A stretch of DNA of 39,821 bases from a virus (lineage: Duplodnaviria > Heunggongvirae > Uroviricota > Caudoviricetes). Made by a program: the position numbers. Each line of letters begins with the position of its first letter. The stretch's first letter is position 1. The stretch is from the IMG/VR virus record IMGVR_UViG_3300045988_152494, positions 1 through 39,821 of that record, one strand, 5' to 3'. This document shows, one piece after another, positions 33,001 through 36,000 of the stretch.

Positions 33001-36000
33001 AAGCTGTACCAAACCAGACGGAACGAAAGCGCCAACAGTAAGGAAGATGCGGTATGACGCAAACACAGCCTGGAAAGCGGCGCTGAGACGGGCTGGTATT
33101 GATGATTTCAGATTTCACGACTTGAGACACACCTGGGCAAGTTGGCTGGTTCAAGCCGGAGTCCCGTTGTCAGTGTTACAGGAAATGGGAGGTTGGGAGT
33201 CTATCGAAATGGTTCGTCGATATGCTCACCTTGCACCTAATCACCTTACCGAACACGCACGGCAAATAGACTCGATCCTGAACCCATCGGTCCCAAATTT
33301 GTCCCAGTCAAAAAATAAGGAAGGTACTAATGATGTGTAACTTATTGATTTAAATGGTGCCGATAATAGGAGTCGAACCTACGACCTTCGCATTACGAAT
33401 GCGTAAATTGATCTTGTAAAATCAATGCCTATCGAATTTAAATGGATTTTTTGCCACAATATTGCCACAGTTCGTTAGGAATCAGACAGAAATGGCGACT
33501 ATACGCAAACGTGGTAACTACCAATGGGAAGCTCAAATCCGTAAACGTGGTTTTCCCTCTCAAACCAAAACCTTTAACACCAAAGTGGAAGCAGAAGCTT
33601 GGGCCAAAATGATCGAGTCAGAAATGGCGAGAGGAGTTTGGCTTAGCCGCAGCGAAGCGGAATCTACGACATTGTATGAAGCCCTAACGCGATATGAAAA
33701 AGAGATTGTTCCCGACAAAAAAGGGGCAGTGCAAGACCGATCATTGGTGCGGATACTAAAAAGCACTCAGCTGGCGAAAAACTATATGGCCAGCATCAGG
33801 AGTGCCGATGTCGCCAAGCTGAGAGATGAATGGTTGAAAATCTATGCTCCTGCAACCGTTTTAAGGCGTTTGGCCTTACTTTCTCATGTATTCAATGTTT
33901 CGCGGAAAGAATGGGGCATGGAGAGCCTGCTGAACCCCGTAGAGGCCATTCGCAAACCCCAACCCAAGAACTCCAGGACCAGACGCTTGGAAGCGCTGCC
34001 TGTAGTTTCTGAGAAAACCTGTGTTACGTCAGGAAAGGAAATAGCCAACGAGATCGAACATATCATCGCCGCAACACATTCATTAGTATTGCCAGCAATC
34101 ATTCTTCTGGCGTTAGAGACAGCCATGCGCCGTAGCGAAATCGCAGAACTTCGATGGCGCTTTATTGATCTTGATCGGCGAGTTGCACATCTGCCGGATA
34201 CTAAGAATGGTAATGCCCGCGATGTCCCTTTATCAACGAAAGCCATTACGATACTGTCCAGTCTCAAGGAACATTCTAAGCCAGCTGCTGATAAGGTTTT
34301 TGATATGCGTGCAGACGCGATTACCCGAGCTTTTGACCGAGCTGTAAAACGAGCCAGAGAACGATACGAGAAAACAAACTCATTATGTGATGAATCTTTC
34401 CTTAAAGATTTAAGATTTCATGACCTTCGACATGAGGCAACATCTCGACTAGCTGAAATTTTCCCTATGCATGAACTAACCAAAATTACAGGACATAAAG
34501 ATCCAAGAATGCTAATGCGGTATTATCATCCAAAAGCTGAAGATTTAGCGTTAAAGTTGAAATAAGGACGTTGTATGGAATATAAAAATAAGTTGGTTGA
34601 CGCATCACCCAAATTAAACAACCCTCAACTATTGGCTATAATATACTTAATACCTTTTGGATACTTGATTGTAGAAAACCCATTATGGCTAGAAAATATA
34701 TACATTGCCGCTCCAATTTTTCTATCATCTATAGCTTTATTAACCAGTGTATACATAGGATATCGTGATTTATTAAATAAAGTATTTAATAATACAGTGG
34801 TTAAGTGGGGCGTAACTGGCTTTACATATTCAGTATGCTTATGGATCGCAAAGTTTAAGCTTGACATAGCTTATGGTATAGCCCCAGAAAATCTTAATTA
34901 CTCAACATTAGCTTATGCTTTCATGCTCTCATTTCCAATAGGAGCAATGATTTGTGCAACTACAGTCTATATATACATATTTTTGCGAGATGTATCCCCA
35001 GCAAAAATAGTAATATCCTCTATGATTTCAGTATATATTGGAAACTTGGCTCAACATCATATACAGGTGAACAATCTTCCTGAAAAAATAATATTGATAG
35101 GACTCATAATTATGGTCCCCTATAACATGGTCAATCTAGCCAGTTCATTAGTTATTAAAAGGAAATTTAATTTTAATCGTTTAGTATCAGGCTTATCCCT
35201 TTTTGCTGTGTCAGTTGCTCTTTTTATTATTAGCATGACAGCAATGAAATATATTGAAAGATTTCAAGAAAAGTTTATTTTTCTTGATGCAAGAACATCT
35301 ACGACATGTGGTAGCCCAGAAAGCAAATCTCTTTATATTGAAAAAAATGAAAATCAGTGTTATAAAATATCAGGAAATAAATTCTCGGAGTTAAGACTAA
35401 CTCTTGTAGATAAAAACATCCCGAATATAAATAATAAGGGCACTTCAACTTATGAACAAAAATAACCCTGCTAATTCATTTTCCATAGAAGCAAGGAAAG
35501 AAGCTTTTCGGAGAGCTGAAGCCAGTCTTTTTTTATCAAGTAAAGATCCCAAAGGCTCCTCATTTTTTAATGAAATAAAAAATAAGGTAATCAATGGAGA
35601 GCTAACCTATGAAGAGGCAAAGAGAGAAGTGTTAAATCATCACATTGAACAATCTAAAAATAAAATTAAAAAAGGCTAACATCCAGTTAGCCTCTTCTCA
35701 CTAGTGAGCCATTTTATAGTCCCTTAGCGCATTTTTAAGTAACTCAGTTTGCTCATCAGCATCATCATAATTATAAATGCCGGTAGCAGAATAATATTAT
35801 TCGATACATAGAATATTTATCAATGGTTCACAAATCTCTTTAATAAACTCTTTGTTGTTATCGGCAAAAATAATTTTTATTCCTTCCAAAACAAAGCTAT
35901 TATAATCAGCCATTATCCACCTCCTTACAGGTGTTTAGTGGAAGCGTCAGTTAACGTTACCGCGCTAACTGACGCGTCTAAATCAAGATTTTTTACTGCC

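What the first reader, a model, noticed from the sequence alone, without database searches (positions are those of the whole stretch)
33341..33491. tRNA-Thr 3' fragment sandwiched between two integrase genes: tandem integration at a thrW-derived att site
Seen in sequence: 49 nt identical in layout to the 3' end of tRNA-Thr(CGU), from anticodon arm to CCA, lie 14 bp after the P22-type int stop and about 90 bp before a second integrase gene. The 5' half of the tRNA is absent. Established: P22-family integrases target thrW, and integration leaves a partial tRNA repeat at one junction. Inference: two elements are arrayed in tandem at this hotspot, sharing the att core.
Basis: partly seen in the sequence, partly recalled or inferred. 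Interest (0 to 1): 0.5.

Follow-up and report, generated by a model that had tools for sequence, protein, structure and literature searches.

The report
Half tRNA-Thr joining two mobile elements
A leftover 3' half of the threonine tRNA gene thrW marks the seam where a Shigella-SfII-like prophage and an unrelated integrase-bearing genomic island sit side by side at the same chromosomal hotspot; this is a real but ordinary, well-documented arrangement.

Summary
Window 33355-33403 (minus strand) is an exact 49-nt copy of positions 28-76 of E. coli thrW, tRNA-Thr(CGU). It lies 14 nt after the stop of an integrase that is 100% identical to phage SfII Int and 89.9% identical to P22 Int. It lies 88 nt before a second, distantly related tyrosine integrase (int2, 30% identity). 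There is no 5' tRNA half.

- In E. coli MB15 the same prophage sits directly on an intact thrW.
- In NCTC9038 the int2 island alone lies between thrW and the same fragment.
- In TA8571, and 16 of 5426 complete E. coli genomes in all, the junction is the same as here, with intact thrW about 18 kb further on in TA8571.

The junction is a hybrid. The int2-side arm of the island is joined to the shared core, and the core is joined to the int-side arm of SfII attP. int2 homologues in Enterobacter, Pantoea and Pseudomonas carry the same half tRNA-Thr beside them.

One correction: next to a P22-type int one normally finds the intact thrW. The fragment is there only because the island separates the prophage from the 5' half.

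Tandem occupancy of thrW and of tRNA sites in general is already documented. Interest is low.

The parts
1..31919 (.). Body of an SfV/SfII-like lambdoid prophage. It holds Mu-type baseplate and contractile tail genes, HK97-type head, lysis, Q, O/P replication, a cI-like repressor and bet/exo genes. Its tail-side end lies outside the window.
   Evidence: 97-98% nucleotide identity over window 194-25000 and 15000-33403 to prophages at thrW in E. coli MB15 and others. Pfam hits for baseplate, repressor, Bor and SIR2_2.
31920..32300 (+). Excisionase-like gene (xis) overlapping the start of int1
   Evidence: Pfam HTH_17, E 1.4e-08. Phage SfII annotates xis at the equivalent position, overlapping int.
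32177..33340 (+). int1: SfII/P22-type tyrosine integrase, 387 aa
   Evidence: Pfam Phage_integrase, E 5e-48. 100% identical to SfII Int and 89.9% to P22 Int.
33290..33306 (-). TGGGAC repeated twice at 11-nt spacing inside the int1 3' end: candidate arm-type Int1 sites (inferred)
   Evidence: Seen in the sequence. Identical in SfII attP and nearly so in MB15 attL, and recognisable in the Pantoea relic. Function not tested.
33341..33354 (-). 14-nt spacer (TTTAAATCAATAAG on the tRNA strand), the start of the int1-side arm of the P22/SfII-type attP
   Evidence: Identical to SfII attP and to MB15 attL. Differs from the chromosomal backbone, TTAAAATCAAAGAG.
33355..33400 (-). 46-nt att core of SfI/SfII/SfV/SfX/P22 (ATTCGTAATGCG…GGCACCA), equal to thrW positions 31-76
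   Evidence: Exact match. The same 46 nt are in SfII attP, after which the phage sequence diverges. The published core sequence is in PMC3636060.
33401..33403 (-). Three further thrW-identical bases (CGC, thrW positions 28-30) that complete the anticodon stem. They extend the island's repeat to 49 nt.
   Evidence: Present in every int2-linked fragment (window, TA8571, F719, LR-31, Enterobacter, Pantoea), absent from SfII attP and from MB15 attR.
33404..33491 (-). int2-side arm of the island's att site, which also contains the int2 upstream region. It holds a near-palindrome at 33407-33426 and TGTGGCAA twice at 11-nt spacing (33451-33458 and 33462-33469).
   Evidence: Identical or near-identical next to int2 in E. 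coli, Enterobacter and Pantoea. The TGTGGCAA pair is conserved in homologues of 57-69% identity. Repeats listed. No sigma-70 consensus promoter was found.
33492..34565 (+). int2: second tyrosine integrase, 357 aa, belonging to the genomic island
   Evidence: Pfam Phage_integrase, E 1.7e-26. 30% identical to int1 over the catalytic domain, with RRSE, HDLRH and RYYH motifs visible. At most 40% identical to any phage integrase in the collection. 25% identical to K-12 IntF.
34575..35679 (+). Island genes that follow int2 in E. coli: a 296-aa multi-pass membrane ORF (34575-35465) and an overlapping 75-aa ORF (35452-35679) that RefSeq names 'VbhA family antitoxin'
   Evidence: Same gene pair after int2 in TA8571, F719 and A23, and disrupted by IS insertions in LR-31 and NCTC9038. 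No Pfam or NCBIfam family for the 296-aa protein. Translation.
36140..39821 (.). Tn3-family transposon inside the island. Terminal inverted repeat at 36140-36177, tnpA at 36179-39157 (minus), resolvase at 39317-39769 (plus). It runs off the window.
   Evidence: Pfam DDE_Tnp_Tn3, E 2e-150, and Resolvase, E 1e-38. The homology boundary is at 36140, and E. coli LR-31 has an identical insertion in a trbL remnant.

Best explanation
The 49-nt half tRNA is the internal junction of a tandem array of two independent integrative elements at the thrW hotspot. One element is an SfII/SfV-like lambdoid prophage with a P22-type Int and Xis. The other is a genomic island that carries its own tyrosine integrase, int2, at the end far from thrW and divergent from the tRNA fragment.

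Both elements carry a copy of the 3' part of thrW in their attP: 46 nt in the phage and 49 nt in the island. Each recombines with thrW by tyrosine-recombinase strand exchange inside that block. The exchange is inferred to occur around the anticodon stem-loop, whose palindrome CGCATTCGTAATGCG is kept whole in the fragment.

The first integration duplicates the core. The second element then enters one of the two copies. Either order of events gives thrW(intact)-island-int2-[core]-int1-prophage-[core]-backbone.

The junction in the window is therefore a hybrid of the island's attR and the prophage's attL. Because the core and both integrase-proximal arms are intact, each element should still be able to excise on its own. 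Prophage excision would leave island-attR next to the backbone. Island excision would restore an intact thrW next to int1.

Shown here: the sequence anatomy, the identity of each arm, the independent occurrence of each element, and the conservation of the int2/half-tRNA-Thr linkage across genera. Inferred: the position of the crossover, present-day excision competence, and the outer ends of the array in the source genome.
For: 1. The 49-nt match to thrW 28-76 is exact and unique, and no intact tRNA is present.

2. int1 is 100% identical to SfII Int. The sequence from int1 through the 46-nt core is identical to SfII attP, which then diverges. The 46-nt core is the published att core of SfI/SfII/SfV/SfX/P22 (PMC3636060).

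3. Homology breakpoints fit the model. Prophage matches in other genomes end exactly at 33403. Island matches start at 33337-33339. Only the core region is shared.

4. All three occupancy states exist in E. coli: prophage alone (MB15), island alone (NCTC9038) and island plus prophage with intact thrW at the outer end (TA8571). The same junction is in 16 of 5426 complete genomes.

5. LR-31 carries an island 100% identical to the window's right part, bounded by intact thrW.

6. int2 homologues of 92-100% identity in Enterobacter, Pantoea and an Enterobacterales MAG all have the 49-nt tRNA-Thr(CGU) 3' fragment about 90 nt upstream. In Pantoea the fragment has the host-type T arm. A 59% homologue in Pseudomonas also has a Thr(CGU) fragment.

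7. In Ca. Pantoea haifensis a 2.7-kb int2 element lies between the fragment and an intact thrW. The island's far arm is conserved between Pantoea and E. coli.

8. Tandem integration of two phages at thrW, with one entering the attL of the other, has been shown experimentally (PMC3306764). The general mechanism of tandem arrays is described in PMC7192596.
Against: The window holds neither the intact thrW nor the prophage's distal core copy. The complete array in the source genome is therefore inferred from relatives.

No excision product or activity of either integrase can be shown from sequence. No recombination directionality factor was identified for the island. No consensus promoter was found upstream of int2.

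The island carries IS and Tn3-family insertions and only remnants of transfer genes (trbJ, trbL, traJ in relatives). It may no longer be mobile.

The order of the two integrations cannot be deduced.
Confidence: 0.9

Rival explanations
1. The array was not assembled by two integrase-mediated events in this lineage. It was acquired en bloc, or by homologous recombination between core copies or flanking genes of strains with different occupants of thrW. On this view the junction is inherited rather than made here.
For: The identical junction occurs in 16 genomes from varied hosts. The island part is 100% identical to LR-31, while the prophage part is 97-98% identical to other strains. That pattern is compatible with reassortment by recombination.
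Against: This does not change what the junction is, because some ancestor must still have made it by site-specific recombination at the core. The breakpoints coincide exactly with the att core. Laboratory tandem integration at thrW gives the same kind of junction (PMC3306764).
Confidence: 0.15
2. One composite element carries two integrases. On this view int2 and its neighbours are cargo of the prophage, or the prophage is cargo of the island, and the half tRNA is an internal relic with no role.
For: The two integrase genes are only 151 nt apart. Adjacent P22-like int 3' ends are also seen next to int2 fragments in Enterobacter vonholyi and Pantoea.
Against: Each element occurs alone at thrW. 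Phage SfII has a complete attP without int2. Of 93 genomes with the int2 junction, only 16 have int1 next to it, whereas int1-type ends occur in 1874 of 5426 genomes. There is therefore no enrichment.
Confidence: 0.03
3. The fragment is part of a real, unusually long tRNA gene. RefSeq annotates a 112-nt 'tRNA-Ser' over the equivalent of window 33355-33466.
For: The PGAP annotation appears in many E. coli genomes.
Against: ARAGORN finds nothing at default settings and only implausible intron-containing models at relaxed thresholds. The Rfam tRNA model gives 19.1 bits against 29 and lacks the 5' acceptor strand. The minimum-free-energy fold of the 112-mer is not a cloverleaf. The annotation disappears in genomes whose copy of the junction spans one base less, which suggests a borderline score. 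The 5' part is the conserved int2 arm, found also in homologues that have no tRNA fragment.
Confidence: 0.02
4. thrW was broken by an unrelated, non-site-specific insertion or deletion, and the second integrase lies next to the remnant by accident.
For: IS and transposon activity is abundant in the island.
Against: The boundary between the int2 arm and the fragment is at the same base in E. coli, Enterobacter and Pantoea, with a matching direct repeat in an intact thrW at the other end of the island.
Confidence: 0.02

Closest known systems
Tandem SfI-SfX lysogens of Shigella flexneri at thrW (Sun et al. 2011, PMC3306764)
   Same: Same target gene (thrW downstream of proA), same 46-nt core and same P22/Sf-type integrase family. 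The incoming element enters an att copy of the resident one, which leaves an internal core copy between the two elements.
   Different: There both partners are phages with the same integrase type. Here the partner is a non-phage island with a distantly related integrase (30% identity) placed at the opposite end of its element and divergent from the tRNA fragment.
CP4-6 cryptic prophage of E. coli K-12 (thrW … intF-ptwF)
   Same: An element at thrW bounded by the same 49-nt repeat; the CP4-6 feature starts at thrW position 28. Its integrase lies at the distal end, divergent from the tRNA fragment. This is the 'OD' arrangement of Panis et al. 2010 (PMC2951348), for which negative autoregulation of intF was shown.
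   Different: int2 is only 25% identical to IntF over 189 aa. The gene content is unrelated.
Tandem arrays of integrative genetic elements at tRNA genes (Mageeney et al. 2020, PMC7192596) and phage-ICE tandems (PMC13651849)
   Same: The general mechanism applies: integration restores the crossover core at both ends, so a second element can enter either copy. The island's relatives carry conjugative-transfer remnants (trbJ, trbL, traJ), so the pair resembles a phage plus a decayed ICE or IME.
   Different: There is no evidence here for co-transfer or functional interplay. The transfer module is incomplete and interrupted.
Phage SfII / P22 attP-int-xis module
   Same: int1 is 100% identical to SfII Int. 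The attP int-side arm and core are identical, and xis lies upstream.
   Different: The other attP arm (gtr side) is replaced at this junction by the island's arm, as expected for an integrated prophage.

Membership tests
P22/SfII-type thrW-integrating prophage (int1 module) | Integrase closely related to P22/Sf Int | tested here: met
   100% identical to SfII Int and 89.9% to P22 Int over 387 aa.
P22/SfII-type thrW-integrating prophage (int1 module) | 46-nt att core ATTCGTAATGCGAAGGTCGTAGGTTCGACTCCTATTATCGGCACCA next to int | tested here: met
   Exact at 33355-33400, 14 nt after the int stop. The arm is identical to SfII attP. Core sequence as published in PMC3636060.
P22/SfII-type thrW-integrating prophage (int1 module) | Second core copy at the opposite prophage end | not testable with these tools
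   That end is outside the window. It is present in the related MB15 prophage, 40.7 kb away.
P22/SfII-type thrW-integrating prophage (int1 module) | Int/Xis-dependent excision | not testable with these tools
   Needs an experiment. An xis-like HTH_17 ORF is present.
Tandem array of integrative elements at a tRNA gene | Internal junction made of the core flanked by arms of two different elements | tested here: met
   Left arm equals the LR-31 island attR arm. Right arm equals the int-side arm of SfII attP.
Tandem array of integrative elements at a tRNA gene | Each unit has its own integrase and occurs alone at the same site elsewhere | tested here: met
   Prophage alone in MB15. Island alone in NCTC9038. 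Both integrases are intact ORFs with Phage_integrase domains.
Tandem array of integrative elements at a tRNA gene | Intact tRNA gene at one outer end of the array | not testable with these tools
   Not within the window. Present in TA8571, A23, LR-31 and NCTC9038, which have the same island.
Functional tRNA gene (RefSeq 'tRNA-Ser', 112 nt) | Cloverleaf with a paired acceptor stem, scoring above tRNA model thresholds | tested here: not met
   No ARAGORN call. Rfam RF00005 gives 19.1 bits against a gathering score of 29, with the 5' acceptor strand absent.
CP4-6 / IntF-type thrW island | IntF-like integrase | tested here: not met
   25% identity over 189 aa, and only in the catalytic domain.
CP4-6 / IntF-type thrW island | 49-nt thrW repeat with the integrase divergent from the distal tRNA fragment | tested here: met
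   The K-12 CP4-6 feature starts at thrW position 28. ptwF has the same 49 nt, and intF is adjacent and divergent.

The most novel reading that the evidence does not exclude
The hybrid junction might be more than a scar. It could let the int2 island and the SfII-like prophage excise as one circle, by recombination between thrW and the prophage's distal core catalysed by either integrase. The island could then hitch-hike on phage induction or packaging, as reported for phage-ICE tandems in streptococci.

A separate possibility is that the int2 elements form an undescribed family of tRNA-Thr(CGU)-specific integrative elements. They can be as small as 2.7 kb and may act as a cargo and defence-gene landing pad across Enterobacterales.
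Probability: 0.07. Interest if true: 0.45.

Novelty: new member of a known kind. Interest (0 to 1): 0.13.

Why it matters
The value is mainly practical. The result sets exact boundaries for the two elements: the prophage ends at 33403 and the island begins at the core. It shows how to read a half tRNA that lies between two integrases. It also flags a recurrent RefSeq misannotation, a 112-nt 'tRNA-Ser'.

thrW is one of the busiest integration hotspots in E. coli and Shigella, used by serotype-converting phages and pathogenicity islands. Knowing that a distinct integrase family (int2) also uses it, and stacks with P22-type prophages, helps in delimiting islands and predicting which units can still move. 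It does not open a new biological question.

Tried and rejected
- Searched the window for further core copies with up to 3 mismatches. Only one copy was found.
- Ran Rfam at gathering thresholds over the whole window. There were no hits.
- Ran ARAGORN with relaxed thresholds and introns. It gave only implausible models: a tRNA-Ile at ps80, a Thr with a 52-nt 'intron', and an overlapping Gly. These were rejected.
- I could not find a plausible tRNA-Ser cloverleaf in the 112-nt RefSeq call. The MFE fold is not a cloverleaf.
- A fuzzy-regex scan timed out and was replaced by a Hamming scan.
- The sigma-70 promoter and terminator scan of 33250-33560 found nothing. The int2 promoter is therefore not located.
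- Pfam and NCBIfam gave no family for the 296-aa ORF. It is a hydrophobic membrane protein, not a Fic toxin.
- E. coli S51 appeared to have the reverse order, thrW-prophage-island remnant-backbone. Its internal junction has been replaced by an IS1-flanked polysaccharide cluster and no internal core copy remains. It is only suggestive.
- Tested for a special association of int2 with P22-type int. Sixteen of 93 int2 genomes have int1 adjacent, against a background of 1874 of 5426. There is no enrichment, so the idea of a dependent satellite was set aside.
- Yersinia int2 homologues (57-69% identity) have no tRNA fragment within 200 nt. The Thiobacillus homologue (67% identity) does have a tRNA 3' fragment, one with a CGC anticodon loop. 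A Moraxellaceae homologue sits by an intact tRNA-Ala in the other orientation. The family's target is therefore not uniform at greater distance.
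Full report
**Observation**

The intergenic interval 33341-33491 contains, on the minus strand at 33355-33403, the 49-nt string CGCATTCGTAATGCGAAGGTCGTAGGTTCGACTCCTATTATCGGCACCA. It occurs once in the window, even when 3 mismatches are allowed, and never in 100 shuffles. Alignment with thrW of E. coli K-12, TA8571 and MB15 shows it is identical to positions 28-76 of tRNA-Thr(CGU). That span runs from the 5' strand of the anticodon stem to CCA. The sequence 5' of it (…GATCAATTTA) is unrelated to the thrW D arm.

ARAGORN finds no tRNA in the window. 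The Rfam tRNA model reaches only 19.1 bits against a gathering score of 29, and the 5' acceptor strand is missing. Rfam at gathering thresholds finds nothing anywhere in the window.

The upstream ORF (32177-33340) ends 14 nt before the CCA end. The downstream ORF starts at ATG 33492, 88 nt beyond the 5' end of the fragment.

**The two integrases**

- int1 (387 aa) has a Phage_integrase domain. It is 100% identical to the integrase of Shigella phage SfII and 89.9% identical to P22 Int.
- An HTH_17 excisionase-like ORF overlaps the start of int1, as xis does in SfII.
- int2 (357 aa) also has a Phage_integrase domain. It shares only 30% identity with int1, confined to the catalytic domain.
- int2 is at most 40% identical to any integrase in the phage collection and 25% identical to K-12 IntF.

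**What lies on each side**

To the left is a lambdoid prophage with Mu-type baseplate and contractile-tail genes and an HK97-type head. It is 97-98% identical to prophages at thrW in many E. coli genomes. Matches to these prophages end exactly at window 33403, the 5' edge of the fragment.

To the right is a genomic island. After int2 come a 296-aa membrane ORF, a small ORF that RefSeq names VbhA-family antitoxin, a trbL remnant and a Tn3-family transposon. Matches to this island in genomes that lack int1 begin at 33337-33339. Only the core and a few bases after CCA are common to both sets of matches.

**Comparative test of the tandem model**

- In E. coli MB15 the same prophage lies directly on an intact thrW: proA-thrW-14 nt-int1. 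A 46-nt core copy sits 40.7 kb away next to the yagP/paoD backbone.
- In NCTC9038 the island alone occupies the site: proA-thrW-island-int2-fragment-yagP'/paoD.
- In TA8571 the order is proA-thrW-about 18 kb of island-int2-fragment-int1-prophage remnant. This is the window's junction with an intact thrW at the outer end.
- In A23, F719 and LR-31 the island is followed by a third element, a P4-like remnant.
- The LR-31 island is 100% identical to the window's right part, including the Tn3-family insertion in trbL.

Counts among 5426 complete E. coli genomes:

| Junction type | Genomes |
|---|---|
| int2 arm plus core | 93 |
| int1 3' end plus core | 1874 |
| Exact int1-core-int2 junction | 16 |
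| int2 arm plus core plus backbone | 36 |

Sixteen of 93 is no more than the background frequency of int1 would give. Nothing suggests that one element depends on the other.

**Anatomy of the junction**

SfII attP reads int stop, 14 nt, 46 nt of thrW (positions 31-76), then unrelated phage sequence. The 46 nt are the published core of SfI/SfII/SfV/SfX/P22 (PMC3636060).

The eight-way alignment shows three things:
- The window junction is identical to SfII attP and MB15 attL from int1 through the core.
- It is identical to LR-31 attR from the core, plus three more thrW bases (CGC), into the int2 arm.
- The island's other arm, next to the intact thrW, is conserved between E. coli LR-31 and Ca. 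Pantoea haifensis.

The junction is therefore a hybrid of the island's attR and the prophage's attL. The complete anticodon stem-loop palindrome CGCATTCGTAATGCG is retained. I infer that strand exchange occurs there. This rests on general knowledge of integrases that target the anticodon loop of tRNA genes and is not tested here.

**int2 and tRNA-Thr across genera**

A scan of one genome per species found 16 loci with int2 relatives. The 92-100% identical copies in Enterobacter vonholyi, E. quasiroggenkampii, two Pantoea and one Enterobacterales MAG all have the same arm and the 49-nt tRNA-Thr(CGU) fragment. The Pantoea copies carry the Pantoea-type T arm and acceptor.

In Ca. Pantoea haifensis the fragment and an intact thrW are only 2.7 kb apart and bracket int2 and two small ORFs. 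This is a minimal element.

More distant relatives vary:
- A 59% homologue in Pseudomonas has a Thr(CGU) fragment.
- A 67% homologue in Thiobacillus has a fragment of a tRNA with a CGC anticodon loop.
- Yersinia homologues have none within 200 nt.

A pair of TGTGGCAA repeats at 11-nt spacing lies 22-41 nt upstream of the int2 ATG. It is conserved even in the distant homologues. I read these as candidate arm-type sites or an operator.

This would fit the 'opposite-divergent' integrase/tRNA arrangement, for which negative autoregulation was shown with ptwF-intF in K-12 (PMC2951348). No consensus promoter was detected.

**Mechanism**

Each element integrates by tyrosine-recombinase exchange between its attP copy of the thrW 3' part and thrW. 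The first integration duplicates the core, and the second element enters one of the copies.

Either order of events gives the observed structure, and the order cannot be recovered. The same process has been shown in the laboratory for SfI entering the attL of SfX at thrW (PMC3306764). It is the accepted origin of tandem arrays of integrative elements (PMC7192596).

Both integrase genes are intact and both proximal arms are unaltered. Independent excision of each element is therefore plausible but untested.

A P22-type prophage normally has the intact thrW beside int, as in MB15, and leaves the partial copy at its far end. A fragment beside int1 is thus not the phage's ordinary scar. It is direct evidence that something else, the island, lies between the prophage and the 5' half of thrW.

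**Rivals**

- En bloc acquisition or homologous reassortment may explain how this strain got the array. It does not change what the junction is.
- A single element with two integrases is contradicted by each element occurring alone.
- The RefSeq 112-nt 'tRNA-Ser' over the fragment and int2 arm is not supported by ARAGORN, Rfam or folding. It vanishes in genomes whose copy of the junction spans one base less.
- A random break of thrW is excluded by the identical boundary in three genera.

**Verdict**

The arrangement is an instance of a well-known phenomenon at a well-known hotspot, and the same junction is already present in public genomes.

The modestly new elements are:
- the delineation of an int2 island family specific for tRNA-Thr(CGU), for which the thrW literature I searched gave no description;
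- its conserved arm repeats;
- the recurrent tRNA-Ser misannotation.

Noticed in passing
window 33355-33466 (minus strand); e.g. L002 21256-21367, L005 20018-20129: RefSeq/PGAP annotates a 112-nt 'tRNA-Ser' covering the thrW fragment plus most of the int2 arm in many E. coli genomes. The call is absent in ETEC6, Ecol_AZ147 and others whose copy of the junction spans one base less. ARAGORN and the Rfam tRNA model do not support a gene, so this is probably a recurrent annotation artefact.
   Followed up: partly
window 33451-33458 and 33462-33469; loci L012-L014, L016-L020: TGTGGCAA occurs twice at 11-nt spacing just upstream of int2. The pair is conserved in homologues down to 57-69% protein identity (Yersinia, Thiobacillus), with a TGGGACA/TTGGACA variant in Pseudomonas and Moraxellaceae. 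The int1 3' end carries TGGGAC twice at the same spacing (33290-33306). These are candidate arm-type integrase sites.
   Followed up: partly
window 36140-39821: A Tn3-family transposon: 38-nt terminal inverted repeat GGGGTCCGCTTGGAAAACGGAAATTACCCCACGTTAAG, a 992-aa transposase and a resolvase. It is inserted in a trbL remnant of the island. E. coli LR-31 has the identical insertion, where the transposon carries oxidoreductase and thioredoxin cargo.
   Followed up: partly
window 34575-35679: A 296-aa multi-pass membrane ORF with no Pfam or NCBIfam family overlaps by 14 nt a 75-aa ORF that RefSeq names 'VbhA family antitoxin'. The pair follows int2 in most E. coli copies. The partner is not a Fic protein, so the 'antitoxin' label is doubtful.
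   Followed up: partly
window 25132-27574 and 16149-16490: The prophage carries a 535-aa SIR2_2-domain protein immediately downstream of the cI-like repressor, which may be a prophage-encoded anti-phage defence gene. It also carries a Bor/Iss lipoprotein gene near the lysis genes.
   Followed up: no
L009 2864-5674 (Ca. Pantoea haifensis): A minimal int2 element of about 2.7 kb holds int2 plus two small ORFs. It is bounded by the 49-nt repeat and an intact thrW. A relic of a P22-like int 3' end lies beyond the fragment.
   Followed up: partly
L024 (E. coli S51) 2438-22500; L025 (NCTC9038) 1485-18742: An IS1-flanked polysaccharide-biosynthesis cluster of about 17 kb is inserted into the 296-aa ORF of the island. 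In S51 the island remnant lies on the backbone side of the prophage, the reverse order to the window, and no core copy remains between them.
   Followed up: partly
L001, L005, L007 (left of the fragment): In F719, A23 and LR-31 the int2 fragment is followed by a third element: an HTH regulator, DUF3987, YfjI, inovirus Gp2-like, and BREX in LR-31. No integrase is annotated next to the fragment. It shares the 16 nt after CCA with P22-type arms.
   Followed up: no
window 1-193: The first 193 bases of the window do not match the otherwise near-identical prophages, whose matches start at 194.
   Followed up: no
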